The translations under genes and the position numbers were made by a program. Shown here piece after piece: positions 49,748-64,000 of a stretch of 64,000 nt of DNA. This stretch comes from a virus (Duplodnaviria; Caudoviricetes). Numbering within the stretch: position 1 is the first letter of the stretch; every line of letters begins with the position of its first letter. The notes under the pieces were generated by a model. The model did not search any database. It saw only the letters and a list, made by a program, of their open reading frames with translations, and was not told the DNA's origin. The stretch is taken from IMG/VR virus record IMGVR_UViG_3300034062_005626; one strand, written 5' to 3'.

Positions 49748-52201
49748 TTATAAATATTTGTCAGCAAAATCTTTTGCACTTATTATGGTTTTATCTTCTA
49801 TTAATGTATTATCTAAATCATTAAGTTTTTTTACAACATCTTTAGCGTCATCTTCTTTTTCAAATCCATTTATGTTTGGTATTGTTTTAGGGTTTGCTTT
49901 CTTTATATCATTCAATGTTGCAGGTTCAGGTTTTTCATCTGTTGTGGCGGCATAATAAATTTTATATAAAACTGGGTCAGAAACATTGGTAGGGGCCACT
50001 TTAGCATAAAAATAAAATGGTTCATATGGTACTTTTTGAAACGAAAATTTGTAACTTTTACCATCTTGTGTTCCTAATTCACCGATAACCCGATATAAAT
50101 ATCCATTTTTATCTCTAACCGCACCATCTGTTATTGTGACATTTTCACTTATTTTTTCTACGTTTTTAGGATTTTTAAACACTTGTTTTACTTTATCAAG
50201 GTCTATGTTTAACGCATCCTCATTAACCGCTATATCTTTGTATACGACTAAAGATTTTTTAAATTTTTCTAAATCACTTTCTTTTAAACCGTTATATTTT
50301 AAAAATAATGTTTGGTTTTGGTTTTCTTTCATTACAAAATCATATAACCTCCCAAACGATTTAAAAATTCCTTGTGGTTCAGCAAACCCTTTTAATAATG
50401 CTTTTTGCTCCTCCTGCCCCATACTGCCCCACCATTCATCAAAAGCCTCATTTTTGGACATCACTAATTCGGATTTTGTTTTATCTGGGTCTTGACTTAA
50501 ATCTCTATGTGCACCTACTAAACCAGATTTTATTAAATTATATTCCCACTCAATATCAAAAGGTAATAAATCTGAAGTGTTAAATTCAGTGTATGCCTTT
50601 ACAATTTCATCCCATAATAACTCATAACCTGTTTTTTTTGTTTCAGATGAAATTCTATCTATTTCATTCTTTTCGAAACCAATCGCGATAAGGGTGTTTA
50701 TTGTTACAGGAACAATTATTAAAACCTTTTTAAAAACTATTAATTTTATATATTGCCATAAAAGATTTTGAAGAAATTTTTTCCATGAACCAAACCCTTT
50801 AGTCCCAAACATTTTACCTAATGTTTTAAAAGTCCTTATCTGACCAAAGAAAACTTCCATCCAAAAATTTCTCCAAGAAAACTCAAATGTTTTTATATAT
50901 TCTTTAATATTTTTAAATAACCCACTAATCCCATCTTTAAAGACACTTTTAACAAAATTTTTAAACTTTGTGAAATCTTCCATAAAAGAGCTAATTTGCT
51001 CTGCATTTTTAAGAACGCTCTCAGGGGTATTTGGGTATCTTGTTTTTAAATCTTGAAAATATTGTTTAAAAGATTCAGGTTTCCATTTTGGCATGATGTT
51101 GGAACCAGGTTCTCCATATATTAATGAATCTTCAATTGCTTTAACTAATTCCGTTTCACCTTCTTTTCTTAACTCAGCTAAAACTTCATCCCATATTTGT
51201 CTGGCATTTTTTTCAATACCATCAATTTGGTCAATATCGTATGCTATTGCCCTAACTAAAGATTGAAATTCTGTGGTTGGTGTTGTTGAGTTTTCTATTA
51301 CAATTTTTTCAGCTGGAAATGATTTTAATAAATTTAAGTTTTCGTCTAAAGACGCTTTTAACTCATCAAAAGTTTTTCCAATATTTTTAAATTTTTTAAT
51401 TAGGTTATTTAAAAATCTCCACTTACCACTAACTTTTTTTATATCCTCAATATTGGTTACAGGTTTTTCATCGTAAGTCAATCCCTTCTCTTTTTGCCAC
51501 CCATCAAGGTCAGTTTCTATTTTTTTGTCTAACCAGGTTTCTAAACGGTCAAAATTTTTATCACCTGATTTGAATGGTATTCCTTTCGCTTTCAACTCAT
51601 CTTCAAAATACCCTTTATAAAATTCTTTTAATTCTTTTTTATTTGGTTTTTTTGCACCCCCAAGATATTCATCGTCAATAAGTTTTTCCATTTCAAAATA
51701 TGAATCACTATAAGCCTGATACACTTTACCATCAGGGTTGTCAAAAACTTTATTTAACGCACTATCAACAGAATTTATAAACATTTGATTATTGTCTATA
51801 GAAGCCCCTCCTTTTGCATTTTGTACTTTTATTTTAAAATCATTAAATTTTTTATAAAAACTACTAGGGTTTGTACTTAAAGACCCCAATTTATCGGCTC
51901 TAGCAGCATTTGCAATCTCTGTTTTTTGATTTTTTAAACCTTGAGCCATATCATCTATTTCTTGAGCAGTTAATTTAACTACCTTAGACCCTTTCGGTAT
52001 TAAGTCATTCAATCCATTTAATAATTTTTTTACATCATCAACCGATTCAAATGCCTCATCCGCATGAATTAAAAGTTTTCCTAATTGTGTGATTGGAGGA
52101 CCTCCCTCATTTAAAATATGACTATTTGTGGGAAAATTTTCTTCTTTTAACCCCATTAAGGATTTTGCCCTATTAATTTCTAATATTAAATTATTATTCA
52201 T
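49748..52201 (-). CDS. large leader-bearing helical protein with hydrophobic segment (possible ejection protein)
   Basis: Leader MNNNLILEINRAKSLMGLKE...ILNE|G; hydrophobic VLIIVPVTINTLIAIGF. Confidence 0.65.
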   Translation of the reverse strand: MNNNLILEINRAKSLMGLKEENFPTNSHILNEGGPPITQLGKLLIHADEAFESVDDVKKLLNGLNDLIPKGSKVVKLTAQEIDDMAQGLKNQKTEIANAARADKLGSLSTNPSSFYKKFNDFKIKVQNAKGGASIDNNQMFINSVDSALNKVFDNPDGKVYQAYSDSYFEMEKLIDDEYLGGAKKPNKKELKEFYKGYFEDELKAKGIPFKSGDKNFDRLETWLDKKIETDLDGWQKEKGLTYDEKPVTNIEDIKKVSGKWRFLNNLIKKFKNIGKTFDELKASLDENLNLLKSFPAEKIVIENSTTPTTEFQSLVRAIAYDIDQIDGIEKNARQIWDEVLAELRKEGETELVKAIEDSLIYGEPGSNIMPKWKPESFKQYFQDLKTRYPNTPESVLKNAEQISSFMEDFTKFKNFVKSVFKDGISGLFKNIKEYIKTFEFSWRNFWMEVFFGQIRTFKTLGKMFGTKGFGSWKKFLQNLLWQYIKLIVFKKVLIIVPVTINTLIAIGFEKNEIDRISSETKKTGYELLWDEIVKAYTEFNTSDLLPFDIEWEYNLIKSGLVGAHRDLSQDPDKTKSELVMSKNEAFDEWWGSMGQEEQKALLKGFAEPQGIFKSFGRLYDFVMKENQNQTLFLKYNGLKESDLEKFKKSLVVYKDIAVNEDALNIDLDKVKQVFKNPKNVEKISENVTITDGAVRDKNGYLYRVIGELGTQDGKSYKFSFQKVPYEPFYFYAKVAPTNVSDPVLYKIYYAATTDEKPEPATLNDIKKANPKTIPNINGFEKEDDAKDVVKKLNDLDNTLIEDKTIISAKDFADKYL

Positions 52202-52237
52202 TTTTTTATATATAAATACATTTATAAAGTATAAATT

Positions 52238-54655
52238 TTATTTTTTGTTTAAAACAGTGTCAACTAATTGAAATTTTTTTACTTGGTCTTCCATGTTGTT
52301 ACCAAAATTCATATTCATCCAATAATCTACAACTTCCATACTGTCTTTTTTTTGCTCATCTGTTAAAGTATTAGGGTCCGGTTCTTTTTGTGTGTTTTCC
52401 CAGTTGTCGATTAAGTTTGATAATGCTAATTCTAATATTTTTTTATTTTCTTCTTCTTTATCTATTTTTAAATTTGTTATATTTTTTATAGTCGCCCCTT
52501 CTGTTAAATCATAAATTAAGGCCGACAATGTTTTGGAATCAACTTTTCCTGTCTGTTCTAATCCTTTATTTTTTTGATAAACTTCAACCATTGTTTTTGT
52601 AATATCATCAAAATAACCCCAATTTACTCTTGATTTGGCTCCACCTTCAGAAAATAGCCCACCTGTTATACTTTCTAAAGACAAGTTATTATTTATTAAA
52701 CCACTTTCTTTTTTTGTACCATTTTTATACTCAAATTTTAATTTAAAACTTGGGGATAAATTTATTTTTTTTGAAGTGACTTCTTTTTTTCCCATAGGTC
52801 TTATGGTGTCAACTACACGGTCACCAGGGATTGTGTTTATTATTTCTATTTTATTTATAGAACTAACATTAATTAACGTTAATTTTGAGTTTTGATAATT
52901 TCCTAATGTGCCCATGTTTTTAGCAACTAGTTTTGAAATTAAATTTGAAGATTTAGTTTTTCCCTTACTTCCATCGAAAAAATTTTCAATTTTATAATCA
53001 ATACCCATTAAAGGTACCCCCACAACTTGAGCCAACATAGACTGTAACATTTCAACTTCGATTTCATATGAATTTTTATATCTGTCACTCATGACAACAT
53101 TTTTTTGTAACATGGTTTCAAAAGTGCTCTTAAGTAAAAAATTAAATAATCTTTGTTTATCTAGTTGGATTTTTTTAGCTTCCTCCATTAATTTAATTTC
53201 TGCAAGTTTTTTACATTCTTCGGGCGAACTAGTAAAAGGTTGAGGGTTTAACTGTGTTATAAGTTCATTTTTTCTGTCATTGATAATCTTTTCGTACGCA
53301 ATATCCCCTTTGTATTTTTTTGTCTCTACTCCAATAATTTTAGTAAGCTCATCCCAATTAAAAGTTGCAGAGCATTTTCCTAAATTATTGTAAGCCCACC
53401 AATCATAACTATATGTAATACCCCAAATTTTATAAATGGTTCTCATAAAACTATTATTCCAGCCACTAGATTTTGCCACTTCATTCACTAAGTCTACTAC
53501 AAATTTTGCTCCTTTACTTTTTAAACCTGCTTGTAGAATTTTATTAAAATTTTTCTTTAATTTTGGTAAAATAACTTTTGGGTTTAATATATCTTTCATA
53601 AATTCTTTCTCAACAGAAGTTAATGTTTCTGGAGTTTGACTAATAAGTTTTTTTGATATTTCATTTAAAGCCTTTTTTTCTGTTCCTGCAATTTTTGCTA
53701 GTTTGGCAAAACTTTTAAACGAGTTTAATTCTGAGAATGGTATTAAAGCCATCGCAAACGTAAAACCCGCCAAATAAGGGTCTTCATCATAAAATTCATA
53801 AAGAGCTGCATCTATCATTTCTAATGCTGAACCAACCACAGGACCTGCGGGAGGAAAGAAATTTAACATTAAACTTATTATCGGTATAATTGTATGGTAC
53901 GCAGAAACGTATGAATCAAAATTAGGTTCACTAGATGATTTATATGTATCAACAACTTTTCTAACCACATCTCCCGATTCAATGTCACGGTTTAACATAG
54001 GTTGTTTAAATGCGTTTACAGTTTTTATGTTTGACACTGCAACAGGTATGTTTATTTGGGAACCTGGGTTTCCTGGTGAAGAACCAAAAAAACTATTTAA
54101 AAAATTCCAAGGGCCTCCATCAAAAAGGTCTATATTTTGTGTTAATTTAGGGTAGTTGAAATAAAAGTCTTGTAAAACAAAAGTGTTATATATATTTCTA
54201 CTTTGAATTTGTGTGTCATCAACACCAAGTCCCGACTGTTTTGTAGGGTATAATTGTTGATTTAATGTATCTATTAGATTTTGGTCAAACTTACTAAATT
54301 TCCATTCACCTCCTGATTTACCACCCAACACATTTACTTTAAAAAAAGAATCCAAGGTTGTGTATTGAATTTCATTAAACAAGAGATTTGTTAAATATCT
54401 CATGGCTGATAATGCCGCGTCATTGTACGCATCAGTTCCCGAATTGTAATTTGGACACCCCCAAACCCAATAACTTTTTGGTATTTTAAAAAAACCTAAT
54501 TGAAATAACAAAGATTTTACACTCGCAGCCTCTTTAGATTTACACCACTCAGATTCACTTAAAACTATTTCTCTATTCTCAATAATAGTTTTACTTCTAT
54601 CGAAATTAATAAGTGATAATTGCCTTAAAATTTCTTCATGTAAATTGTCTTTCAT
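52238..54655 (-). CDS. large leader-bearing protein with hydrophobic hairpin and C-terminal peptidoglycan-binding domain (possible ejection protein)
   Basis: Leader ..IVLSE|SE; IIPIISLMLNFFPPAGPVVGSAL / LAGFTFAMALIP; GYFDDITKTMVEVYQKNKGLEQTGKVDSKTLSAL (PG_binding_1 pattern). Confidence 0.7.
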   Translation of the reverse strand: MKDNLHEEILRQLSLINFDRSKTIIENREIVLSESEWCKSKEAASVKSLLFQLGFFKIPKSYWVWGCPNYNSGTDAYNDAALSAMRYLTNLLFNEIQYTTLDSFFKVNVLGGKSGGEWKFSKFDQNLIDTLNQQLYPTKQSGLGVDDTQIQSRNIYNTFVLQDFYFNYPKLTQNIDLFDGGPWNFLNSFFGSSPGNPGSQINIPVAVSNIKTVNAFKQPMLNRDIESGDVVRKVVDTYKSSSEPNFDSYVSAYHTIIPIISLMLNFFPPAGPVVGSALEMIDAALYEFYDEDPYLAGFTFAMALIPFSELNSFKSFAKLAKIAGTEKKALNEISKKLISQTPETLTSVEKEFMKDILNPKVILPKLKKNFNKILQAGLKSKGAKFVVDLVNEVAKSSGWNNSFMRTIYKIWGITYSYDWWAYNNLGKCSATFNWDELTKIIGVETKKYKGDIAYEKIINDRKNELITQLNPQPFTSSPEECKKLAEIKLMEEAKKIQLDKQRLFNFLLKSTFETMLQKNVVMSDRYKNSYEIEVEMLQSMLAQVVGVPLMGIDYKIENFFDGSKGKTKSSNLISKLVAKNMGTLGNYQNSKLTLINVSSINKIEIINTIPGDRVVDTIRPMGKKEVTSKKINLSPSFKLKFEYKNGTKKESGLINNNLSLESITGGLFSEGGAKSRVNWGYFDDITKTMVEVYQKNKGLEQTGKVDSKTLSALIYDLTEGATIKNITNLKIDKEEENKKILELALSNLIDNWENTQKEPDPNTLTDEQKKDSMEVVDYWMNMNFGNNMEDQVKKFQLVDTVLNKK

Positions 54656-54658
54656 AAT

Positions 54659-54979
54659 CTATGTTTTATATTTACCAGTTTTACCAAAAGTTCTTCCTGA
54701 AGACCATTTTTCACCGGCCTTATTCAACATGTTTCCCTTTCCTCTTGTTACTTTATCTTCTTTTTTACCACCTAAAGAATTTGCAGGTCCTCTAGCGACA
54801 CCTGTTTCCCATTTTTCTATCGAAGGGTAACCTGTTGATGCTCCACCTCCACCTGAAGCGGCGGCACCACCTTCCTCATCTTCTAAAATGTCAGATTCAT
54901 CAAGTTCAACTTCTTCATCTTTTTTTTCTAAAAGCATCAAACTTAAAATTCTATTTATATTTTCAACTAACACTTTCAT
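54659..54979 (-). CDS. small leader-bearing protein with basic W/RG repeats
   Basis: Leader MKVLVENINRILSLMLLE; KWETGVARG / VTRGKGN / KWSSGRTFG. Confidence 0.75.
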   Translation of the reverse strand: MKVLVENINRILSLMLLEKKDEEVELDESDILEDEEGGAAASGGGGASTGYPSIEKWETGVARGPANSLGGKKEDKVTRGKGNMLNKAGEKWSSGRTFGKTGKYKT

Positions 54980-55281
54980 TTAAATTGTTGTTTTGGGAGT
55001 TTTTTGGGGTATATAATATAATATTCATTAAGAAAACTAATTAGTTCATCTTCATTAGTTATATAATCATAGTCATCATTTTCCCACTCATCTATCTCAT
55101 CAGATATGGTTTCATATATGTTTAAATTTTTGGTTTTATCGTAACCAAACTCCTCAAAAAAACTATATTCAATAACATCTTCTCTAACAACTTCATCCTC
55201 ATCATCAATAAGTCTAAATTCAACATTAATCAAATTTTGAACTTTATCAATATGATGTGATATTACCTCGCAAACTTCCAT
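54976..55281 (-). CDS. acidic hypothetical protein
   Basis: 101-aa ORF coupled to neighbours. Confidence 0.75.
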   Translation of the reverse strand: MEVCEVISHHIDKVQNLINVEFRLIDDEDEVVREDVIEYSFFEEFGYDKTKNLNIYETISDEIDEWENDDYDYITNEDELISFLNEYYIIYPKKLPKQQFK

Positions 55282-55282
55282 T

Positions 55283-55753
55283 TTATTTGTTTATATAAAA
55301 ATTTATTACACGTTTTACAGATTCTTCTATATTATCAATTTTATTTTGTAAATCTTCATCGTCATCCACTAAGTCATCAAATTCTTCATCATCTTCTAAT
55401 TCAAAAACATCTACAGGTCCTTTTGATTTAAATCGGTATGCTGGTTTTTGATTATTAACGTTATAAAAAGTCATTGACTGTTGAGGTCCTCCTGATTCAA
55501 AATCATATGCCGGTTCAATTTCATCATAATTTAATGGTTTTGCCGTAATTTCATTTATTTTATGATTTTGATAAACTTTAACCGTATTGTTGTTTGTTAC
55601 AGTTACTCCGTTTAAGTCTTTTCTATCGTCATACACAGTCAACGGATACATATTACCATTAACATTTTGTGTTGCATATCCGTCATAAACTGAAGAATGT
55701 TGTCTTATAATATCTTGTTTTTCATTATCTGAAAGTTTAACTGGCCCTCTCAT
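55283..55753 (-). CDS. hypothetical protein with leader-like N-terminus
   Basis: VKLSDNEKQDIIRQH resembles the IISESEKKKIL leader of 45731..48853. Confidence 0.7.
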   Translation of the reverse strand: MRGPVKLSDNEKQDIIRQHSSVYDGYATQNVNGNMYPLTVYDDRKDLNGVTVTNNNTVKVYQNHKINEITAKPLNYDEIEPAYDFESGGPQQSMTFYNVNNQKPAYRFKSKGPVDVFELEDDEEFDDLVDDDEDLQNKIDNIEESVKRVINFYINK

Positions 55754-56433
55754 TCTATTTCTTTATTTAAAAATTTATTTGCTTCAGACATCCAAAACTG
55801 TTTGGCCGTTGTTGCTAATCTAACCATAGTTTTTTGTACGTCTTTTAGACTATATTTTATTTCTTTGTTATCGAGGTATTCCATAGAAGCTCTTATAAAC
55901 AAATTATAAATATCCTCTGAACGATTGATGAGTCTTTTAATAAGTATCTCTTTTTCCTTATCTGGTTTTATGTGATAACTTTGTAACTTGAAAAAGTCCT
56001 GTATATAATCAGGTCCCATCAATAAAAACTTACCCCCTTCCATTGCCATGTTGTGAGAACCAATTTGTCTTTCAAGTTCTAAAAACTCATAAACTTTTTC
56101 CAATTCTTTTTTAGAAAACACGGCGAGAAAATCACCTTTTGAAATTAAATCATCAAGATTTTTAAAGTCAATTTCTTGAATATTTTCAATCTTAGAATCT
56201 TTATCAAATATCCAAGCATCTGTCTCAGGTAATAAACTTAATTTACTAATAGGGTTTCCGTCTTCATCAAACCATTGAACATTATACATATATCCTAAAT
56301 CTTTTGGAGAAAATTTTGGTGCATTTCCAATTTCTAAAACTTCACCTTTAGTTCCCGGACCCAATGTTTCTCCATCCATATAGACAAGAACAATTCTATC
56401 CCCCTTTTTTAATTCAGGATTTAATTTACTCAT
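55750..56433 (-). CDS. DUF4314-like SH3-fold domain protein
   Basis: KKGDRIVLVYMDGETLGPGTKGEV..I...VQW.....LSLLPETD. Confidence 0.6.
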   Translation of the reverse strand: MSKLNPELKKGDRIVLVYMDGETLGPGTKGEVLEIGNAPKFSPKDLGYMYNVQWFDEDGNPISKLSLLPETDAWIFDKDSKIENIQEIDFKNLDDLISKGDFLAVFSKKELEKVYEFLELERQIGSHNMAMEGGKFLLMGPDYIQDFFKLQSYHIKPDKEKEILIKRLINRSEDIYNLFIRASMEYLDNKEIKYSLKDVQKTMVRLATTAKQFWMSEANKFLNKEIE

Positions 56434-56470
56434 AACAATAAATACTTAGCTCAGTGTAATACTACAAAAT

Positions 56471-58927
56471 CTATTTTAGAATTTGAATATATCCATAGTA
56501 TTCTTTGATTTCGTCAGTTTCAGGAACCCCAAATCTCATTACCCAAGTATATACACCATCTTGACATCTTACATTATTATATGTTCCATCCCATTTTGAT
56601 TTACTATCAAAACTTTCCCACACGGTTTCACCCCATCTATTGTATATTAAAAAGTGAAATTGGTGTATATCAACTCCCGAAGTAATAATAGGTTGAAAGT
56701 ACTGATTATATTGGTCATTATCAGGAGTGAATGTATTTGGAATATAAAAAATTTCATTTGGACATAACTCCACGGTCACTATAAAGTTTTCAGGATTAGA
56801 TACACAACCATTATCCCATCTAACAACTTGAAATTGAAATATACCATCTTGATTCCAAGTTATGTTTAGATTTTGTGATTGTGTTGTATCGCCAAAATGG
56901 TACCACTCGTTATATCCTCCACTTGCTGAGTTTGCTCCGAATACATCTGTAATAGTATCTCCTTGACATATCTGATGGTACTCAGTGTTTTCACCAACAG
57001 TACCATTTGTTACAGGTATTAAATTTGGTCTTGGATAAACTTGAACTTGAATTGAATCAAAAAACCAACATCCAGATTGATTATAAGTGTAAGAAACAGT
57101 ATCAACACCAATAAACCCATTATCAGGACAATATTCACCTCCCCATACATTTAACCCTGCGAAAATACCGTTTGGAGGTGTTGCAATTAAATTAATACAA
57201 TTATCATATTCACAAAAAGGACCAACAGGTGTTATTTGAGGTAAAATGTTTAAAACATAAACGGTAAAAGTTTGTGGTTGACTTTGACACCCAAGTTGAT
57301 TTTCACCAATTACAGTTAATAAGTTTGTGTATAATCCACTACTAACACCATTTACATCTAAATTAATTTGGTTGGTTCCTTGTCCTTGAGAAATATTTCC
57401 AACTAATGTTGACCAATTATATGTTAAATTTAGTGTTGGACTAGAAACGTTATATTGATTTAGTAATGAATTAAAACACACTGTATCAGAACCCGTAATA
57501 GGATTGATTATAACTTGTGGTGGGTCATTTAAAACTGTTGTTTGAGTTGCAGGACAATTATTGGCATCAATTACCAAAACGGAATAATTACCTGAACAAA
57601 GATTTGTCGCGTTTTGAGTATTTTGGCTATTAGACCATAAAAAAGTATATGGTGCAATACCATCAATTGGATTTACAACCGCCGAACCATTACAATACCC
57701 AAAACATGTTGGATTGGTTGGTGTTATTGTTGGTGATAGTAATGCTGCCGGGTCAATCAAAGTCGCAGACCCGTTGAAGTTGCAGTTATTTGCATCTGTT
57801 AAAGTAAAATTATATGTACCTTCACATAAATTATTTAAAGTTAAATTATTACCTAATCCATTCCAATTTATTATAAATGGACCAACCCCACCAACAGGTA
57901 CAACGGTTGCAGAACCATTACAACTATCATTACAAAGGGGATTTGTTACTACAATGTTTGGTGTTGGTAAAACTGGTGTAGGTACTACATGTATTGTGTC
58001 AGGACCTAACCCAACTCCTTGTTGATTACAAGTAGACCAACCCGCATTGCAAGGTCCATATTCTAATTTACAAGTATAATAAGCTCCACCAATAGGAGGG
58101 GTTACTGTAATACTTTGACCTGTACCAATAGATACGGGATTTCCAACTTGATACCAAGTTAATACAGGTAGAACTACAGGTCCTGATGGTGTATATCGTC
58201 TTGCATCATTAACTGTGGTCCATTGTGTTGAATTTCGACCTGCAACCGTAACCGCTTGAGTTCCTGTAAGATTATGAATACCCTGAACCGCGGTTCCTTG
58301 AGCCCATTGAGGACAATTTGGTTTATTTGCAATATAGTTTTCGATTACATTTGTAGACTCGTATAATACGATATGAAAAGTACCTTGTAAATTGGTGCAC
58401 GAATACATAGGAACACCAACCCAACTAACCACTAACTTTCTACATGGCGCAACTCCTTGAACTTGATACCTAATTTGACCTCCAATACCAGGATTCCAAT
58501 CTTGCCAAGGACCCATTATACAGTTTTTAGGAACTGCGGCATTTGGTGTTGGGATTGCTAGTGATGCAAACGTTCCTGGTTGAACCCCAGCACCTAACGA
58601 AACCCACCCATTTGACCCAATTCTAAATTGAGTAAAAATTTGACCATAGTAACAAAAAGTGAAACCAATATTAAATACTCCTGATTGTGAGTCGTCAGTT
58701 AATTGAACCAAAGTTCCATTATTTGTTTGAGGAACATATGTAATTTGAGATACATTATAGTTTGATGTTCCATTTGGGTTTGAACCTTGACCACATTGTG
58801 AAAGGTCTGCAGTTAAAGTGGTTTGAGTTACACCACAAGGAAGATTTAAGTCAGGCCCAATAAAAGGACAATACTGCGAAAACGTGATAAATGTGATAAG
58901 GGAAAATATTAATGTAATGAACTTCAT
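56471..58927 (-). CDS. T9SS substrate: signal peptide, SprB repeats, type B (gliding motility-associated) C-terminal domain
   Basis: MKFITLIFSLITFITFSQ; two NPxC...CNGSA.V.P.GG..P...W...NLC.G.Y.....DANNC units; FYIPNTFTPDND..N, IYNRWG, WDGTY, DGVYTW. Confidence 0.9.
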   Translation of the reverse strand: MKFITLIFSLITFITFSQYCPFIGPDLNLPCGVTQTTLTADLSQCGQGSNPNGTSNYNVSQITYVPQTNNGTLVQLTDDSQSGVFNIGFTFCYYGQIFTQFRIGSNGWVSLGAGVQPGTFASLAIPTPNAAVPKNCIMGPWQDWNPGIGGQIRYQVQGVAPCRKLVVSWVGVPMYSCTNLQGTFHIVLYESTNVIENYIANKPNCPQWAQGTAVQGIHNLTGTQAVTVAGRNSTQWTTVNDARRYTPSGPVVLPVLTWYQVGNPVSIGTGQSITVTPPIGGAYYTCKLEYGPCNAGWSTCNQQGVGLGPDTIHVVPTPVLPTPNIVVTNPLCNDSCNGSATVVPVGGVGPFIINWNGLGNNLTLNNLCEGTYNFTLTDANNCNFNGSATLIDPAALLSPTITPTNPTCFGYCNGSAVVNPIDGIAPYTFLWSNSQNTQNATNLCSGNYSVLVIDANNCPATQTTVLNDPPQVIINPITGSDTVCFNSLLNQYNVSSPTLNLTYNWSTLVGNISQGQGTNQINLDVNGVSSGLYTNLLTVIGENQLGCQSQPQTFTVYVLNILPQITPVGPFCEYDNCINLIATPPNGIFAGLNVWGGEYCPDNGFIGVDTVSYTYNQSGCWFFDSIQVQVYPRPNLIPVTNGTVGENTEYHQICQGDTITDVFGANSASGGYNEWYHFGDTTQSQNLNITWNQDGIFQFQVVRWDNGCVSNPENFIVTVELCPNEIFYIPNTFTPDNDQYNQYFQPIITSGVDIHQFHFLIYNRWGETVWESFDSKSKWDGTYNNVRCQDGVYTWVMRFGVPETDEIKEYYGYIQILK

Positions 58928-58933
58928 AGTTTT

Positions 58934-58945
58934 TATTTATAAATA
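58934..58945. promoter_or_regulatory. palindromic late motif TATTTATAAATA
   Basis: Upstream of the T9SS substrate gene. Confidence 0.55.
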
Positions 58946-59028
58946 GATTTTATGTTATATTAAAAAATAGACAATTTTCTTTTACAGTCAATTTTTTATT
59001 ATATCGTGTATCTGTATATTTATTTTAT

Positions 59029-59709
59029 ATGACGAAGTTAAAGTTACTTGGTAGTCTTGTTGATACAATAAAAGAACAAGGGTTGGGTAGATACTCAGGC
59101 TTTTATGTTGCAACACCTCCAATTGAGGGTGAGGAGCCAATAGGTTATGATTATGATGAAAATGAACCGCTGACAGTGTCAGATGTTGAAAATTTTGGAG
59201 AGGTGACTGATGAGGAGGTAGAAGAAATTTCAAAACTTGACACTTTTCCGGCAAAAGGAAAATGTAAAGAATGGTCACACTTATCTAAAAATGGTAAAAA
59301 AAATGGTGAGTTAAGTTCTTCTGAATTACAGACTTTAAAACATCATACAGAGCACCAACTAAGTGTTGAAGCCGCAAAAAACTTTGACAAATTAGAAGAT
59401 AAATTTATACAAAAGTATGGTAGAAAAATAAATAATTTTACCGATTCATATAGGCCATATTTGGTTCAATGGGATAAATTTGATTGGAATAAATGTATAA
59501 AAACCGGAAAACCTATAAAAAAAGAAACTGAAAATATTACTATTTCTTATCCTGGCACATCTAATCACGGTTGGGGTGAGGCTGTTGATATTTTTGACTC
59601 AGATTGGCAAAAATTCGCTAAAGAACACGGAAAAAAATATGGTTGGTGTTGGGGGGAAAACAAAAGTGAATCTTGGCACTTTACTTATGATTTAAGTTAT
59701 TGTTCTTAA
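59029..59709 (+). CDS. leader-bearing M15 (VanY-like D,D-carboxypeptidase / endolysin-type) zinc peptidase
   Basis: DSYRPYLVQ, PGTSNHGWGEAVDI (SxHx6D), ESWHF; leader MTKLKLLGSLVDTIKE. Confidence 0.9.
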   Translation: MTKLKLLGSLVDTIKEQGLGRYSGFYVATPPIEGEEPIGYDYDENEPLTVSDVENFGEVTDEEVEEISKLDTFPAKGKCKEWSHLSKNGKKNGELSSSELQTLKHHTEHQLSVEAAKNFDKLEDKFIQKYGRKINNFTDSYRPYLVQWDKFDWNKCIKTGKPIKKETENITISYPGTSNHGWGEAVDIFDSDWQKFAKEHGKKYGWCWGENKSESWHFTYDLSYCS

Positions 59710-59712
59710 AAA

Positions 59713-59743
59713 TTTGTAGATTAATAAAAAAAGTTTATTTTTG
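59713..59743 (+). promoter_or_regulatory. Bacteroidota sigma-70 promoter TTTG-N19-TATTTTTG
   Basis: -33 at 59713-59716, 19-nt spacer, -7 at 59736-59743. Confidence 0.75.
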
Positions 59744-59760
59744 TATAAATAAATTAATCT

Positions 59761-60081
59761 ATGAAAACGACACCACAAGAAGAAGCTGAAGTTTATAAAA
59801 ACTACCCAAAAAAACGTCTAAAAAAAGTAATCGCCACTTATAAGTTTTTTAAACTTTTAAATGACGATACTTTAAATTTTGTTTTTTCTTTTTTAACCGT
59901 TATTGTTCCTCAAATTTTAATTTTTGGTTTCAGTTTTGGTATTTTATTATTTTCAGTTTTATTTCACTTTTTTGTTTGTTGGTTATACATGGTGAAATAT
60001 AAAAATATCAAATTAGTTACTGATGAGGAAAAAGAAGAAATCGTTGTAATTCTTAAAATTTTAAAAGATTACCTAAATTAA
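59761..60081 (+). CDS. small membrane protein
   Basis: Long hydrophobic segment(s) at about aa 38-78. Confidence 0.7.
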   Translation: MKTTPQEEAEVYKNYPKKRLKKVIATYKFFKLLNDDTLNFVFSFLTVIVPQILIFGFSFGILLFSVLFHFFVCWLYMVKYKNIKLVTDEEKEEIVVILKILKDYLN

Positions 60082-60755
60082 TAGAAATATCTTTCATCCA
60101 TTCCACCTCTTCTTCTTGAGGCCTTTTTATCTTCAAGAAAATCTTTTGATGCTCTACCTTTGAAATACATTATTACACCTAATACTGCAATATAAAATGC
60201 AAATGGACCACAATGTCTTGAACATCCAGAACTTTGAACGATGTCATATACCATGTCTAAAAATTTGAAATCGACGTGACCTGGAATTTGAGATATAAAT
60301 GCTAAACCTGCAACACCCAATAAACCTACACCACCAAAGATATTTGCTCTTGCTATAATTGATTTAATTCTATCAAATTTTCCTTCAAATAGGTAAGATT
60401 CAGATACTACTCCAATAATATCTTCAATTTTTTCTGATGCCTTTTCTTCTCTATCTGATAGTTCTTCGTCTACACTATTTTCCAATTCATCTACAACTCT
60501 ATCAATATTAATTCGTGAAGCCATTCTTGATAAATCACTTAGTTCATCATCGTCCATTTCAGGGGCAATCATCTCTCCAAATAATTTAGATACTTCTTTT
60601 GCCGCTCCCATAATGTCAAAATAACCACCTCTATCTTTGAAATCCATTTTCATAGACATTTCATCTTCCATTTCGTCTTTTGCCTCACGTACCATTTTTT
60701 TAATTAATCGGCTTAATTGAGCCTCATTTAATGTAAATTCAATTCTTCTTTTCAT
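60078..60755 (-). CDS. leader-bearing two-TM membrane protein
   Basis: Leader MKRRIEFTLNEAQLSRLIKKMVRE; hydrophobic IFGGVGLLGVAGLAFI and FAFYIAVLGVIMYF. Confidence 0.75.
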   Translation of the reverse strand: MKRRIEFTLNEAQLSRLIKKMVREAKDEMEDEMSMKMDFKDRGGYFDIMGAAKEVSKLFGEMIAPEMDDDELSDLSRMASRINIDRVVDELENSVDEELSDREEKASEKIEDIIGVVSESYLFEGKFDRIKSIIARANIFGGVGLLGVAGLAFISQIPGHVDFKFLDMVYDIVQSSGCSRHCGPFAFYIAVLGVIMYFKGRASKDFLEDKKASRRRGGMDERYFY

Positions 60756-60759
60756 TTTT

Positions 60760-61254
60760 TTATTTTAAAAATCTTAGTTTATATATTGTCGAGTTTATTA
60801 ACTCAATTATTGTATCAATTTGATTTTGTAAATATGAATCCTCACAACAATCTCTTAAGTTGTCAACTTGTTTACATAAATTTTTCATGTATTCACAAGT
60901 TTTTTCAGTACTTTGCCAATCTTGTATTTCCATTGTTTCATAACCTTTTACAATACCATATTTTCCTTGGTAAGATTCAATTAAACCATCAACCAATGCA
61001 TCCACACCTTCATAATAGTTTTGTGTTGCTTTATGTTCTGAATAAGATTGTGTTTGTAAATGTAGTGTGTGTACTTGTGTTTGCGAATGTAAAAGAATTG
61101 AGGCTAATTTTGCGAAATCACCTGAAACACCCTCGTCACCCATTGACTCATCTTCCATTTCAAAATCTTGCGTTTCAAAATCTTCCATTTCTTGTTCACT
61201 CATAAGATTTTTTATGTTGAACTTTCTATTTAATAGTTGTTTTTTTGTAATCAT
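60760..61254 (-). CDS. leader-bearing ferritin/Dps-like four-helix protein (DUF5856-like)
   Basis: HSQTQVHTLHLQTQSYSEHKA..YYEGVDALVDGLIESYQGKYG; LQNQIDTI. Confidence 0.75.
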   Translation of the reverse strand: MITKKQLLNRKFNIKNLMSEQEMEDFETQDFEMEDESMGDEGVSGDFAKLASILLHSQTQVHTLHLQTQSYSEHKATQNYYEGVDALVDGLIESYQGKYGIVKGYETMEIQDWQSTEKTCEYMKNLCKQVDNLRDCCEDSYLQNQIDTIIELINSTIYKLRFLK

Positions 61255-61268
61255 ATTTTTTTTATTTT

Positions 61269-61282
61269 ATATTTATAAATAT
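61269..61282. promoter_or_regulatory. palindromic late motif ATATTTATAAATAT shared by divergent genes
   Basis: Perfect palindrome in a 26-bp intergenic gap between two divergent leader genes. Confidence 0.65.
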
Positions 61283-61901
61283 GTCGTTATTAAAAGAAGT
61301 GTATAGAATCCAAAAATTGATGAATATAACTGAATCAATAAATATGTCCAATTCTATATTTGAAAAGTTTGACATTGATGAGTTTAAAAATTTTCCACCT
61401 CCATCGGATGATAGTTCAGAAACAAAAAAAGAAATTGAGTTTTTAAAAAGCATTGATTTGAAACAAAAATTCGTTCAAAAAAAAGATGACATTGAAGGTA
61501 ATTTTATTGAACTATTAAAAAAACATGGAATTAATGAAAAAAAACTTGTTAATAAATTATCCAAGGATGTAAGAAAAATAATTTTAGAACTCAAATTATT
61601 TTATAAAAGACCAAGACCTTTTAGGTTGGATAGTAAATTGAATGATAGATTATTAAAATCAATGGAAGGTTTTGCATACCCATCAGGTCATTCAACACAA
61701 TCACATTTATTATATTATGTTTTATCTGAACTATATCCAAATTTGAAAACAGAATTATTGAAAGTAACTGAAGATATTGTTTTTTCTAGACAAATGGCAA
61801 AAGCACATTACCCTTCAGATATTAAATTTGGAAAAAAACTTGCAAAATCTTTGTTTGATTATTTGAAAAAAAACAAATTGATTAAATTAAATCAGGAATA
61901 A
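61281..61901 (+). CDS. leader-bearing PAP2/class A acid phosphatase (vanadium haloperoxidase fold)
   Basis: K..YKRPRP, YPSGHST, SRQMAKAHYPSD catalytic motifs; leader MSLLKEVYRIQKLMNITE. Confidence 0.9.
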   Translation: MSLLKEVYRIQKLMNITESINMSNSIFEKFDIDEFKNFPPPSDDSSETKKEIEFLKSIDLKQKFVQKKDDIEGNFIELLKKHGINEKKLVNKLSKDVRKIILELKLFYKRPRPFRLDSKLNDRLLKSMEGFAYPSGHSTQSHLLYYVLSELYPNLKTELLKVTEDIVFSRQMAKAHYPSDIKFGKKLAKSLFDYLKKNKLIKLNQE

Positions 61902-62430
61902 TTTTTTCTTCAACAAAATATTCAACTTCATCAATAAGTTGACCTAGTTCATCGGTTAGAAACGCCTCTTCATCACCTTGTGGTTTTGAAGATGGGTCAT
62001 TTGCATCATAAGTTAAAAAGTCACCAGTGTCCTCAACAAAATCTAACATACCCAAGGTTTTGTCTTCATCAACCACAATACACCCTATCCATTCTCTATT
62101 ATCCCACATTACAGTTCCAAACAACATTTTAACTCCCATGTCCTCTTCATCGTAGTCAAATTGAAATGAAAAAATGCTTTTATCGGCCAACTCTGTTTCC
62201 CAAGTTTCACCTGATTTATCATCAATTTCCTGATTATCATTTGGCTCATCAGGTACGAACTCGCCCCTTTGACCCGATTTCAAATGTTCAGAATATTTGT
62301 TTAATGTTGATTTTTCTTGTGATGTTAAATTTTCATAACCCACTTTACTCATTTTATCTAAAATATCGTCAATTACCGGTATGTTTTCCAATAAAATTTT
62401 ATATTGTGATTCTGTGATAATAAATTTCAT
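61882..62430 (-). CDS. leader-bearing protein with DUF6576-like helical motif
   Basis: Leader MKFIITESQYKILLE then IDDILDKMSKVGYENLTSQEKSTL. Confidence 0.65.
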   Translation of the reverse strand: MKFIITESQYKILLENIPVIDDILDKMSKVGYENLTSQEKSTLNKYSEHLKSGQRGEFVPDEPNDNQEIDDKSGETWETELADKSIFSFQFDYDEEDMGVKMLFGTVMWDNREWIGCIVVDEDKTLGMLDFVEDTGDFLTYDANDPSSKPQGDEEAFLTDELGQLIDEVEYFVEEKIIPDLI

Positions 62431-62469
62431 AATTATAAATAGTTTCTTTTTTTATTTTTGATAAATTAT

Positions 62470-62477
62470 TATATTTG
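62470..62477 (+). promoter_or_regulatory. Bacteroidota -7 element TATATTTG
   Basis: Consensus match just upstream of the uvrC-like ATG. Confidence 0.55.
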
Positions 62478-62482
62478 TAATA

Positions 62483-63757
62483 ATGTTGACCCAAAAACTC
62501 CAAAATATTCCAAAATCAAGCGGTTGTTACCTTTTTAAAGACAAAAAAGGTCAAATTATCTATGTTGGTAAAGCAAAACACCTCCCAAATAGGGTAAAAT
62601 CGTACTTTTCGGGTAATAAACACTCAGATAAGACTAAATTATTGGTAGAAAACGTTGCAGATGTAGATTTTTTGACCACATTAGACGAAAATTCCGCCCT
62701 TGTACTTGAAAATGACCTAATTAAGACCCACAAACCTAAATTTAACATCAAATTGAAGGATGATAGGTCAAAAAAGTGGTATATTACCTTATCTGATGGT
62801 AATTTTCCACGTTTAGAGGTTAAAAATGACACTAATTTAGACTCAACACCTCTTTTAGAAGTCCCAAGTAGTAATTTGGCGTATGAAATCTATGATACTA
62901 TCCACGACATCTTTAATTTACGTTCTTGTTCTTATGATTTATCACCTGAAAATGTGGAAAATGGTAAGTTTTCTTCTTGTTTAGAGTATCATATGAGTCG
63001 TTGCGACGCCCCATGCATTGCAAATACCAACAAATTTGTTTATAAATCTATTGTTGACGACGTTAAACAGTTATTATCATTTAATTTTGACACTATTAGA
63101 CGTAAACTAACACGTCAAATGAACTATTTTAGTTCAAAATTAGAGTTTGAACAAGCAAATACCATGAAATTTAGATTGGATGCTCTTGATAAGTATGAAA
63201 AATGTGTAGAATCAACAAGAATTGGTGGTTATTTGGTGATTGCAGATGACTTTAAGACTCGTTTCGGGTTAAAATTTACCCCAATCGACATAGAAATGTA
63301 CGATAATTCCCATACCATGGGTGATTGTCAGGTCGCAGGACTTGTTAGATACACAAATGGTAAGAAAAACAAGAGTGAATACCGTAAATTCAACATCAAA
63401 ACTGTTATTGGTCCTGATGATTACGCTTCATTTGATGAGGTTTTACGTAGAAGGTTTACAAGATTACTCAAAGAACGTAAAACTTTACCTAATTTGGTTA
63501 TTATCGATGGGGGTAAAGGTCAATTATCCGTAGCAAAGAGGGTATTTGAGGAACTTTCACTACTTGATAGGGTTGATTTAGTCTCTATTAGTAAGAACTC
63601 GTCTCACAAGTCAGAAAATTTACATTTTGTTGATGGTAAAAGTATAAAATTTGAGAGAAATAAGTTTTTTAATTTGTTAGCATCTATTCAAGATGAGGTT
63701 CACAGATTTGCAATTACTTTTCACCGTCAAAAACGTAGTAAATCTGTTATTAGATAA
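62483..63757 (+). CDS. uvrC: UvrC-like excinuclease lacking C-terminal HhH domain
   Basis: GCY...IIYVGKAK.L..RVKSYF GIY-YIG, 4-Cys cluster, UVR domain, MYDNSH, IDGGKGQL, IQDEVHRFAI. Confidence 0.9.
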   Translation: MLTQKLQNIPKSSGCYLFKDKKGQIIYVGKAKHLPNRVKSYFSGNKHSDKTKLLVENVADVDFLTTLDENSALVLENDLIKTHKPKFNIKLKDDRSKKWYITLSDGNFPRLEVKNDTNLDSTPLLEVPSSNLAYEIYDTIHDIFNLRSCSYDLSPENVENGKFSSCLEYHMSRCDAPCIANTNKFVYKSIVDDVKQLLSFNFDTIRRKLTRQMNYFSSKLEFEQANTMKFRLDALDKYEKCVESTRIGGYLVIADDFKTRFGLKFTPIDIEMYDNSHTMGDCQVAGLVRYTNGKKNKSEYRKFNIKTVIGPDDYASFDEVLRRRFTRLLKERKTLPNLVIIDGGKGQLSVAKRVFEELSLLDRVDLVSISKNSSHKSENLHFVDGKSIKFERNKFFNLLASIQDEVHRFAITFHRQKRSKSVIR

Positions 63758-63998
63758 ATTTATTGTTATAATAGCTTGCAATCCAATCGGCCTTTAATAA
63801 AGGTTCTTGATTTAATATTGAGTCAACACTCAAATAATACATTTCAGTTTCGTAATAAGTCTCTTTATTATATAAATAATTGTCTATGTATTCTTCAACA
63901 GCATCTATAACATCAGTTTTTTCCCCATTTAAAGTTGCTGATATTAGTTTTACTTTGTTGTCGATATAATAAGTTTCACCATCTTCCCAACCTAATTT
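63750..63998 (-). CDS. 3' end of a hypothetical gene truncated by the window edge (not in ORF track)
   Basis: 83 open codons KLGWEDGETYY...YYNNKFI* on minus strand, stop at 63750-63752. Confidence 0.65.
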   Translation of the reverse strand, partial: KLGWEDGETYYIDNKVKLISATLNGEKTDVIDAVEEYIDNYLYNKETYYETEMYYLSVDSILNQEPLLKADWIASYYNNKFI

Positions 63999-64000
63999 CA

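What the first reader, a model, noticed from the sequence alone, without database searches (positions are those of the whole stretch)
56471..58927. Phage-encoded type IX secretion substrate with SprB repeats
Seen: Sec signal peptide, a Cys-rich N-terminal beta domain, two SprB-type repeats, Ig-like domains and a type B (gliding motility-associated) CTD, with the late motif upstream. Known: type B CTD proteins such as SprB are exported by the Bacteroidota T9SS with a PorP-like partner and displayed as surface adhesins. Inference: the phage places its own adhesin on infected cells or jams the T9SS/gliding machinery, e.g. for superinfection exclusion, aggregation near new hosts, or receptor masking. 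No PorP-like gene is visible in this window.
Basis: partly seen in the sequence, partly recalled or inferred. Interest (0 to 1): 0.75.

Follow-up and report, generated by a model that had tools for sequence, protein, structure and literature searches.

The report
Phage-encoded type IX secretion surface adhesin
A large freshwater phage of Bacteroidota carries a long-resident, well-conserved gene for a host-style surface protein with both export signals of the host's type IX secretion pathway and a nidogen-like binding head, so the phage probably puts an adhesin on the infected cell; similar phage genes are already known from sequence and none has been tested.

Summary
ORF 56471-58927 (-) encodes an 818-aa protein with a Sec signal peptide, a Cys-bearing beta-sandwich head, two SprB repeats, PKD/Ig-like domains and a terminal CHU_C (type B T9SS) domain. 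The window is a T4-like lake jumbo phage.

- **Not an artefact:** independent metagenome contigs bridge both junctions, and GC3 matches the phage, not the bacterial orthologue.
- **Distribution:** the gene is single-copy in all five near-complete related genomes searched. It also occurs in a second T4-like lineage (158-166 kb) and a 634-kb huge phage.
- **Selection:** dN/dS is about 0.15, and about 0.1 in both head and CTD.
- **New here:** the head is a NIDO (nidogen-like) fold. The protein is an "orphan" type B cargo, because no PorP/SprF shuttle gene lies in the window ORFs scanned, the related phage genomes or beside bacterial homologues.
- **Origin:** bacterial relatives are Bacteroidota only and common in Crocinitomicaceae.

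Most likely the protein goes through host Sec, T9SS and an unlinked host shuttle, and is displayed as an adhesin on infected cells. The benefit to the phage is unknown. Published precedent is type A cargo in "Cryophage" (Bellas 2020). This scan also noted the same family in five other phage genomes. I rate it a new variant of a known kind, of moderate interest.

The parts
56471..58927 (-). Complete gene for the 818-aa exported protein (P0001); stop codon at 56471-56473
   Evidence: ORF list and translation. More than 120 full-length homologues at 57-98% identity. dN/dS 0.12-0.17 between phage copies.
58939..58945 (-). Sense-strand TATTTAT element (overlapping TATAAATA at 58934-58941), 6-18 nt upstream of the ATG; candidate phage promoter element
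   Evidence: Sequence. TATAAATA occurs 24 times against 11.8 expected in the window. TATTTAT lies close upstream of about 15 window genes, three tail-fibre-module genes among them. A GTATTTAT-type element is kept upstream of group A orthologues and is absent upstream of the bacterial copy L035. Timing class is not shown.
58877..58927 (-). Sec signal peptide, residues 1-17, predicted cleavage S17|Q18
   Evidence: Hydrophobic core kept in all full-length homologues while the sequence drifts. Junction [S/A/T]-Q-[Y/F/N]-C-P with Q18, C20 and P21 invariant. Modelled as a helix, residues 2-14. No dedicated signal-peptide predictor was available.
58178..58873 (-). NIDO-like (nidogen-like) beta-sandwich head, residues about 19-250; the best-conserved part of the family
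   Evidence: AF2 model of residues 19-300: pLDDT 91, pTM 0.87. Foldseek against Swiss-Prot models: alpha-tectorin, PLXDC1/2, nidogen-2, SNED1, DEX-1 and mesh at probability 1.0, TM about 0.5. 10 of 48 homologues hit Pfam NIDO, best E 1.4e-4. 49-88% identical to 47 phage and bacterial head-domain homologues (51-72% in the bacterial copies).
57974..58177 (-). Ig-like connector domain, residues about 251-318
   Evidence: Beta-strands in both models. Ig_7 hits in 5 of 48 homologues.
57524..57973 (-). Two SprB-type Cys-containing repeats, each within a small beta domain, residues about 319-468
   Evidence: Pfam SprB, two stretches, 42.7 bits against cut-off 28. Model pLDDT 75-89.
56762..57523 (-). 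Three Ig/PKD-like stalk domains, residues about 469-722 (PKD_6 at 474-549)
   Evidence: Pfam PKD_6, 30.5 bits against cut-off 25. Three beta-sandwiches at pLDDT 85-91. This is the most variable region between lineages.
56474..56761 (-). Type B T9SS C-terminal sorting domain (CHU_C / TIGR04131), residues about 723-818
   Evidence: CHU_C 54.3 bits against 27, covering profile positions 3-86 of 86. TIGR04131 34.5 against 35. 38 of 38 family members match. Blocks PNxFTPxxDxxN, NRWG, WDG, GxY and the terminal G are invariant. dN/dS 0.07-0.19.
55750..56433 (-). 227-aa gene immediately downstream that travels with the cargo gene in most group A phages; no signal peptide, function unknown, not shown to be linked in function
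   Evidence: tblastn finds it next to the homologue in L001-L008, L011-L015, L027 and L033, but not in L003, L009, L010 or L028, nor in group B. No Pfam or PHROG hit. Atlas search uninformative.

Best explanation
The gene is a host-derived accessory gene that has long been resident in the phage. It encodes an 'orphan' type B cargo of the host's type IX secretion system.

Proposed path:
1. It is transcribed from a phage-type TATTTAT element. Timing is inferred, not shown.
2. The precursor crosses the inner membrane through Sec and is cut between S17 and Q18.
3. It folds with disulfides in the periplasm.
4. Its C-terminal CHU_C domain is recognised by the host T9SS translocon.
5. A host PorP/SprF-like outer-membrane shuttle, encoded elsewhere in the host genome, takes it out of the translocon and keeps it on the surface.

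The result is a stalk of about six Ig-like domains on the infected cell, tipped by a NIDO-like binding head. This is an adhesin of the same kind the host makes for itself.

Shown: the architecture, its conservation and purifying selection in phages, phage residency, the lack of a phage shuttle gene, and Bacteroidota-only cellular relatives.

Inferred: actual export, surface anchoring, the ligand, and the benefit. I favour keeping or strengthening attachment or aggregation of the infected cell where new hosts are dense, in the way phages replace short-lived host proteins after host shut-off.
For: - Architecture.
- Signal peptide kept as a feature with an invariant Q at +1. From memory, Gln at +1 is a hallmark of Bacteroidota signal peptidase I substrates.
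- About 29 conserved cysteines, as expected of an exported protein.
- It is the only protein in the window with a CTD, and the only one with a signal peptide by a crude rule.
- No shared domains with tail fibres or any other window protein.
- Purifying selection on the CTD itself within phage lineages, dN/dS 0.07-0.19. The sorting signal therefore matters to the phage.
- Exactly one copy in each of four jumbo genomes of 272-291 kb that are 93-99% complete, whose capsid is 76-78% identical to the window's where tested.
- Also present in complete 158-166 kb genomes with terminal repeats whose capsid is only 44% identical, and in a 634-kb huge phage.
- Related jumbo genomes also encode type A CTD cargo with Bacteroidota-type signal peptides.
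- Cellular homologues with the same head and CTD occur only in Bacteroidota MAGs apart from two mislabelled-looking bins, and in 80 of 121 genomes of the Crocinitomicaceae family.
- The phage clade nests inside bacterial copies.
- Orphan type B cargo served by an unlinked shuttle is an established arrangement in F. johnsoniae (PMC12618676). Type B cargo stays on the surface bound to PorP-like proteins (PMC9143113).
- Not a chimera.
Against: - No experiment exists for this protein or any homologue.
- The host is not identified and no shuttle has been named.
- TIGR04131 falls 0.5 bit below NCBI's cut-off for this copy.
- In F. johnsoniae, over-produced type B fusions are not secreted unless the shuttle is co-produced, because shuttles are scarce and used stoichiometrically (PMC12618676). 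Strong phage expression without a phage shuttle might therefore export poorly, or compete with host cargo.
- In this window the gene sits next to the tail-fibre module and shares its upstream motif, which would also suit a virion protein.
- The ligand of the NIDO-like head is unknown in any organism.
- The closest cellular orthologue (55% identity) was found in only 1 of 121 genomes of its family. The direction of that exchange is open.
Confidence: 0.7

Rival explanations
1. Exclusion or masking device. The phage makes the cargo in bulk without a shuttle of its own, so it titrates one host PorP/SprF-like shuttle or clogs the translocon. This displaces the host's own related surface protein, possibly the phage receptor. 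The effect would be to block superinfection and stop progeny from sticking to debris.
For: Type B shuttles are limiting and used stoichiometrically, and related CTDs can share a shuttle (PMC12618676). The phage brings no shuttle. The host family makes related proteins. From the abstracts listed, gliding and T9SS mutations confer phage resistance in Flavobacterium (PMC9804748); I did not read that paper in full.
Against: The head is under strong purifying selection (dN/dS about 0.1) and is 51-72% identical to bacterial heads. A plug or decoy would not need that. Nothing identifies the receptor of this phage. No sign of diversifying selection was seen, though no site-level test was run.
Confidence: 0.15
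2. Secreted but released protein. The cargo is exported by T9SS but shed into the medium or onto vesicles and debris, where the NIDO-like head binds a polymer or other cells. It would then act outside the infected cell rather than as an anchored adhesin.
For: The CTD both secretes and targets cargo, and destinations differ between type B CTDs (PMC12618676). The ligand is unknown.
Against: Type B cargo studied so far stays cell-associated through PorP-like proteins (PMC9143113; PMC12618676). The long Ig-like stalk suits display at a distance from a surface.
Confidence: 0.07
3. Virion protein. The product is a fibre, whisker or decoration protein of the particle, and the signal peptide and CTD are vestigial or reused as a binding domain.
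For: The gene neighbours the tail-fibre genes, and the same TATTTAT element precedes them. Ig-like and PKD domains are common on virions (general knowledge).
Against: A cleavable signal peptide with an invariant junction is conserved in every full-length copy. About 29 conserved cysteines. Chromosomal bacterial orthologues have identical architecture and length. The neighbourhood is not conserved: in other group A phages the gene lies among non-structural genes. No PHROG structural family matches. No domain is shared with other window proteins.
Confidence: 0.06
4. Artefact. The segment is a host-derived piece joined to phage DNA by mis-assembly or binning.
For: Overall GC is slightly higher than the flanks (0.352 against about 0.30). 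The closest annotations are bacterial 'gliding motility-associated' proteins.
Against: Contigs from runs not flagged as the source bridge both junctions with 0-4 differences, and depth is even across the gene and its flanks. GC3 is 0.179 against a phage mean of 0.199 +/- 0.027, and against 0.369 in the bacterial orthologue. The gene sits at the same place in the syntenic relative L012 and is present in many independent phage contigs. A phage-type upstream element is present.
Confidence: 0.02

Closest known systems
T9SS cargo genes of 'Cryophage' (Bellas et al. 2020, Nat Commun 11:4403, PMC7468147)
   Same: Phage-encoded proteins that carry a T9SS C-terminal sorting domain and are presumed to use the host's secretion system. 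Known from metagenomic sequence only and untested.
   Different: Cryophage carries type A CTDs on enzymes and a PA14 protein, in hypervariable islands. Here the CTD is type B, which needs a PorP/SprF shuttle rather than PorV. The cargo is a non-enzymatic adhesin-like protein. The gene is conserved and under purifying selection across lineages, not hypervariable.
[quoted passage not shown]
   Same: Type B CTD cargo whose gene has no adjacent porP/sprF-like gene and which depends on a shuttle encoded elsewhere. This is the working model for how the phage protein would leave the translocon.
   Different: Those are chromosomal genes of a cultured bacterium with secretion shown by experiment. Here the cargo gene is in a virus, the shuttle would be the host's, and nothing has been tested. 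Sequence relatedness outside the CTD was not examined.
SprB/SprF gliding adhesin pair of F. johnsoniae
   Same: Type B CTD, SprB-type repeats and surface display (Pfam hits; PMC9143113).
   Different: From memory, SprB is several thousand residues of repeats, and sprF lies directly downstream. This protein has 818 residues, two SprB repeats, a distinct NIDO-like head and no linked shuttle. It is not a SprB orthologue.
PG1035-PorP-PorE complex of Porphyromonas gingivalis (PMC9143113)
   Same: A type B CTD protein held on the cell surface by binding a PorP barrel. This is the model for static anchoring.
   Different: A different organism and different passenger domains. No PorE or PorP gene accompanies the phage gene.
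Metazoan NIDO domains (alpha-tectorin, nidogen-1/2, SNED1, PLXDC1/2, DEX-1, mesh; Pfam PF06119)
   Same: The predicted fold of the head matches these at Foldseek probability 1.0, TM about 0.5. 10 of 48 homologues give sub-threshold to weak PF06119 hits. All are extracellular matrix or adhesion proteins.
   Different: Identity is only 12-19%. The window's own copy gives no PF06119 hit. No NIDO structure has been solved and no ligand is defined, so the likeness says 'extracellular binding module', not a function.

Membership tests
T9SS type B cargo (CHU_C PF13585 / TIGR04131) | Type B sorting domain at the extreme C-terminus | tested here: met
   CHU_C 54.3 bits against cut-off 27, residues 729-816 of 818, profile positions 3-86 of 86.
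T9SS type B cargo (CHU_C PF13585 / TIGR04131) | NCBIfam TIGR04131 at or above its curated cut-off | tested here: inconclusive
   34.5 bits against 35 for this copy. All 38 aligned family members match at E <= 0.001, best 1.2e-12.
T9SS type B cargo (CHU_C PF13585 / TIGR04131) | N-terminal Sec signal peptide | tested here: met
   Hydrophobic core with a conserved [S/A/T]|Q junction in all full-length homologues. Judged by features; no SignalP-type tool was available.
T9SS type B cargo (CHU_C PF13585 / TIGR04131) | porP/sprF-like shuttle gene directly downstream (usual but not universal) | tested here: not met
   None in the window ORFs scanned. None in five near-complete related phage genomes, with a positive control of 17-22 hits per Bacteroidota genome. 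None beside the bacterial homologues examined. The protein therefore falls in the 'orphan' subclass described in PMC12618676.
T9SS type B cargo (CHU_C PF13585 / TIGR04131) | Produced in a cell that has a T9SS (Bacteroidota host) | tested here: inconclusive
   The host is not identified. Cellular homologues lie in Bacteroidota MAGs. The nearest capsids include Flavobacterium phages. The Gln at +1 of the signal peptide fits Bacteroidota (memory).
T9SS type B cargo (CHU_C PF13585 / TIGR04131) | T9SS-dependent export shown by experiment | not testable with these tools
   Needs a secretion assay in a T9SS-proficient host and in T9SS mutants.
SprB gliding adhesin orthologue | Very large protein made of many SprB repeats, with sprF downstream | tested here: not met
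   818 aa, two SprB repeat hits, no sprF. It shares repeat type and CTD class only.
NIDO domain (PF06119) | Pfam hit at the gathering threshold | tested here: not met
   No hit for the window's copy at E <= 1. 10 of 48 homologues hit, best E 1.4e-4.
NIDO domain (PF06119) | NIDO-type fold | tested here: met
   The confident model (pLDDT 91) matches NIDO regions of alpha-tectorin, nidogen-2, SNED1, PLXDC1/2, DEX-1 and mesh at probability 1.0, E 2e-6 to 1e-3. Both sides are predictions. No solved structure exists.
Phage-encoded T9SS cargo (as in Cryophage) | Gene resident in a phage genome, not host contamination | tested here: met
   T4-type capsid, portal, terminase and prohead protease in the window. 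Junctions bridged in independent runs. GC3 ameliorated. Conserved in complete related genomes.
Phage-encoded T9SS cargo (as in Cryophage) | Type A CTD (Por_Secre_tail) | tested here: not met
   Por_Secre_tail gives only a 12.2-bit internal match against cut-off 27. The CTD is type B. Related jumbo phages carry separate type A cargo genes.

The most novel reading that the evidence does not exclude
The phage cargo is a shuttle hijacker. It is made late and in bulk with no shuttle of its own, so its CTD out-competes the host's own NIDO-headed type B surface protein for one scarce PorP/SprF-like shuttle. The infected cell's surface is re-dressed with the phage allele. This removes or masks the phage's receptor, giving superinfection exclusion and protecting progeny from debris, while the adhesive head is kept. 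It would be a T9SS-based counterpart of receptor-blocking proteins such as T5 Llp (recalled from memory).
Probability: 0.12. Interest if true: 0.8.

Novelty: new variant of a known kind. Interest (0 to 1): 0.5.

Why it matters
If the protein is exported as predicted, abundant freshwater phages re-dress their Bacteroidota hosts with a virus-encoded adhesin during infection. That would affect particle attachment, aggregation and phage-host encounter rates in lakes.

It also offers a natural test case for an open question in T9SS biology: how an orphan type B signal finds its PorP/SprF shuttle. A phage cargo must work with whatever shuttle the host supplies.

The NIDO-like head links a large, uncharacterised family of Bacteroidota surface proteins to a metazoan matrix domain that has no solved structure and no known ligand. 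A bacterial or phage representative could be an easy route to both.

Finally, the type B CTD and the Gln at +1 of the signal peptide serve as host-phylum markers for uncultured jumbo phages.

Tried and rejected
- Megablast of 50000-64000 against deposited phages: no match.
- PHROGs: no family for this protein.
- The nearest held virus record, G001, is a 53-kb fragment without the gene. The window's own assembly is not held.
- Foldseek of the head against PDB: nothing at E <= 0.001. A profile of the head against PDB sequences: nothing.
- The first PorP search in phage genomes had no ringing control. It was repaired with Bacteroidota genomes.
- I suspected that L035 (241-kb contig) was a binned phage. 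Rejected: it is flanked by enolase and carA.
- I suspected that the 367-aa ORF after the bacterial tandem arrays was a PorP. Rejected: it is a glycosyltransferase.
- The 227-aa downstream gene as a secretion partner: no signal peptide, no family, an uninformative Atlas result, and not present beside all phage copies.
- TATAAATA as a T4-style late box: it is enriched, but the recurrent sense-strand element is TATTTAT. I did not test it against the AT-rich intergenic background, and its timing is unknown.
- RNA evidence: two freshwater metatranscriptome libraries hold only short contigs (151-262 nt, 95-97% alike) over small parts of the gene. DNA carry-over cannot be excluded, and most of the gene has no RNA cover. 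I do not count this as expression.
- One Pfam call failed on wrong coordinates for L115.
- Not run: complex prediction of the CTD with a PorP-like barrel. No host is known, 21 candidate barrels exist in the stand-in genome, and a negative result would say nothing.
- Not run: the search of protein representatives, because it gives no names or context.
- The nature of G006/L024 (436 kb, classed as provirus, no capsid match) and of G014/L025 was not resolved.
Full report
**1. Observation**

The minus-strand ORF 56471..58927 encodes 818 residues.
- Pfam places CHU_C at 729-816 (54.3 bits, cut-off 27), two SprB repeats (42.7, cut-off 28) and PKD_6 at 474-549 (30.5, cut-off 25).
- NCBI's type B model TIGR04131 scores 34.5 against a cut-off of 35. 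All 38 aligned family members match it, best E 1.2e-12.
- The N-terminus is a classical signal peptide.
- The upstream 20 nt hold TATTTAT overlapping TATAAATA.

**2. Context**

The window is part of a T4-like myovirus.
- It carries a gp23-type capsid protein, gp20 portal, large terminase, gp21-type prohead protease, PhoH, a phage Hsp70, a collagen-repeat tail fibre and a VanY-type peptidase.
- GC is about 30%.
- Relatives with 76-78% identical capsid proteins include genomes of 272-291 kb that are 93-99% complete.
- The gene occurs nearly word for word in 18 lake or freshwater metagenome runs from 2016 to 2024.
- Earlier notes of this scan on the same genome also describe a lake jumbo phage.

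**3. Not an artefact**

- In two runs not flagged as the source, contigs bridge the 3' junction (55746-57607, no differences) and the 5' junction into the VanY gene (58094-59856). Depth is even across the gene and its flanks.
- GC3 is 0.179, inside the phage's range of 0.199 +/- 0.027. The nearest bacterial orthologue has 0.369. The higher overall GC comes from codon positions 1 and 2, that is, from amino-acid composition.
- L012 is fully syntenic with the window.
- Group A orthologues keep a GTATTTAT-type element just before the ATG even where neighbouring genes differ. The bacterial copy has none.

**4. Anatomy**

- *Signal peptide:* present in every full-length homologue. Its sequence drifts, but the junction [S/A/T]|Q-[Y/F/N]-C-P is fixed, with Q18, C20 and P21 invariant. 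From memory, Gln at +1 is typical of Bacteroidota signal peptidase I substrates.
- *Cysteines:* about 29 are conserved.
- *Full-length model:* an all-beta string of domains (pLDDT 76.6).
- *Head:* folded alone with 48 sequences, residues 19-300 give pLDDT 91 and pTM 0.87. The model matches the NIDO regions of alpha-tectorin, PLXDC1/2, nidogen-2, SNED1, DEX-1 and mesh (probability 1.0, TM about 0.5). Ten of 48 homologues hit Pfam NIDO directly, and the Atlas search points the same way. No solved structure matches.
- *Conservation:* the head is the best-conserved part, 51-72% identical even in bacterial copies that are 31-55% identical overall. The stalk varies most.
- *CTD:* it keeps the invariant blocks PNxFTPxxDxxN, NRWG, WDG, GxY and a terminal G-x-h-x-h-[RK].
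- *Uniqueness in the window:* it is the only CTD protein and, by a crude rule, the only ORF with a signal peptide. It shares no domain with tail fibres or any other window protein.

**5. Distribution and evolution**

- More than 120 full-length homologues at 57-98% identity exist in metagenomes.
- Exactly one CHU_C gene is present in each of four 272-291 kb related jumbo genomes. A fifth record, G006 (436 kb, classed as a provirus, no capsid match), holds two.
- A second T4-like lineage also carries it at 55-57% identity. These are complete 158-166 kb genomes with terminal repeats and a capsid only 44% identical.
- A 634-kb huge phage carries it at 47%.
- Between phage copies dN/dS is 0.12-0.17, and about 0.1 in both head and CTD.
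- Domain-wise identities are mosaic, which suggests recombination between alleles.
- Cellular homologues lie in Bacteroidota MAGs. Of 121 genomes of the Crocinitomicaceae family, 80 carry family members (33-51% identity, usually about 900 aa). Only one carries a close 816-aa orthologue at 55%, flanked by enolase and carA.
- In the tree, both phage groups and that one bacterial copy form a clade with 100/99 support, nested in bacterial copies.
- The family is therefore bacterial in origin. The phage allele is old and ameliorated. The direction of the exchange with that one bacterium is open.

**6. The shuttle question**

- PorP_SprF is absent from five near-complete related phage genomes and from the window ORFs scanned. 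It rings 17-22 times in each Bacteroidota genome.
- The bacterial homologues have no adjacent shuttle gene either. Several lie in tandem arrays of three paralogues beside a glycosyltransferase and an O-antigen ligase.
- This matches the 'orphan' type B substrates of F. johnsoniae, which share one unlinked shuttle, Fjoh_1677.
- The same study shows that shuttles are scarce and used stoichiometrically, and that related CTDs can share a shuttle (PMC12618676).
- Type B cargo remains on the surface bound to PorP-like barrels (PMC9143113).

**7. Most likely mechanism**

The path runs Sec export, cleavage before Q18, periplasmic disulfide folding, recognition of the CTD by the host translocon, hand-over to a host PorP/SprF-like shuttle, and display of a NIDO-like head on an Ig-like stalk.

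- *Shown:* the architecture and the selection acting on it.
- *Inferred:* export, anchoring and ligand.

The retained head, strongly constrained and shared with host proteins, argues that binding is the selected function. I favour maintenance or boosting of attachment or aggregation of the infected cell. Related jumbo phages also carry type A cargo, so using the host T9SS seems to be a habit of this lineage.

**8. Rivals**

- Exclusion by shuttle titration or receptor masking is compatible with the shuttle biology, but it is not needed to explain the conserved head (0.15).
- A shed rather than anchored product (0.07).
- A virion protein (0.06). The conserved cleavable signal peptide, the cysteines, the chromosomal bacterial orthologues and the variable neighbourhood argue against it.
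- An assembly artefact (0.02).

**9. Comparison and novelty**

- The only published precedent found is the type A cargo of 'Cryophage', called a unique occurrence at the time (PMC7468147).
- No paper in the searchable library reports type B cargo in a phage.
- Within this scan, phage T9SS cargo has been noted repeatedly, and this very family was noted in five other phage genomes.
- The principle is therefore known. What differs here is the type B orphan signal with its shuttle dependence, the NIDO-like head, and the evidence that the gene is an old, constrained, near-core gene of at least two T4-like lineages.

Verdict: real, well supported from sequence, a new variant of a known kind, and of moderate interest.

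Noticed in passing
L116:79-1689 (G002) and L117:1495-3237 (G004): Related jumbo phage genomes also encode type A CTD (Por_Secre_tail) proteins. One is a 536-aa protein with a Bacteroidota-type signal peptide (...SYSQ|N) and no other recognisable domain. The lineage therefore carries T9SS cargo of both classes.
   Followed up: partly
L032:630-1773 (G006, 436-kb record classed as provirus): A 188-aa PKD_6 ORF is directly followed by a 189-aa CHU_C ORF, which looks like a split or minimal second type B cargo. This record has no match to the window's capsid protein, so its nature (phage, provirus or bacterial contig) is unclear.
   Followed up: partly
L041, L043, L047, L048, L049 (Bacteroidia MAGs): Bacterial homologues lie in tandem arrays of three paralogues (about 1060, 1040 and 976 aa). 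They are followed by a group 1 glycosyltransferase, a methyltransferase and an O-antigen ligase (Wzy_C), which hints at a link between this adhesin family and surface polysaccharide.
   Followed up: partly
window 56471-58927 compared with L001 and L012: Domain-wise identity is mosaic. The window's head and first Ig domain are closer to L001 (89% and 94%) than to its overall nearest relative L012 (84% and 65%), which suggests recombination between phage alleles.
   Followed up: no
window, upstream of about 15 genes (e.g. 45731-48853, 48881-49744, 49748-52201, 55750-56433, 61882-62430): Sense-strand (A)TATTTAT lies 7-25 nt before the start codon, often leaving almost no leader. This is the reverse complement of the T4 late box. 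Enrichment was not tested against the AT-rich intergenic background.
   Followed up: partly
window 25359-27215 (-): Full-length phage Hsp70/DnaK (Pfam HSP70, 866 bits; phrog_22485) lies between the packaging genes and the accessory region.
   Followed up: no
window 52238-54655 (-) and 59029-59709 (+): Two cell-wall-directed proteins flank the region. One is an 805-aa protein with a C-terminal PG_binding_1 domain at the end of the fibre module. The other is a 226-aa VanY-type D,D-carboxypeptidase, a likely endolysin, divergently transcribed from the cargo gene.
   Followed up: no
window 45731-48853 (-): A 1040-aa fibre-module protein combines MORN repeats with CarboxypepD_reg and prealbumin-like domains, an unusual mix for a phage structural protein.
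   Followed up: no
L016-L022, upstream of the group B orthologues: In the 158-166 kb lineage the cargo gene is preceded by a conserved GC-rich hairpin (agctccaaagaaatttggggcttt) that looks like a terminator, then a short AT-rich leader. This regulatory context differs from group A.
   Followed up: no
L038 and L050, L057 (genome contigs): Homologues sit in MAGs labelled Competibacteraceae and Akkermansia, which do not belong to Bacteroidota. These are most likely binning or labelling errors rather than real occurrences outside the phylum.
   Followed up: no
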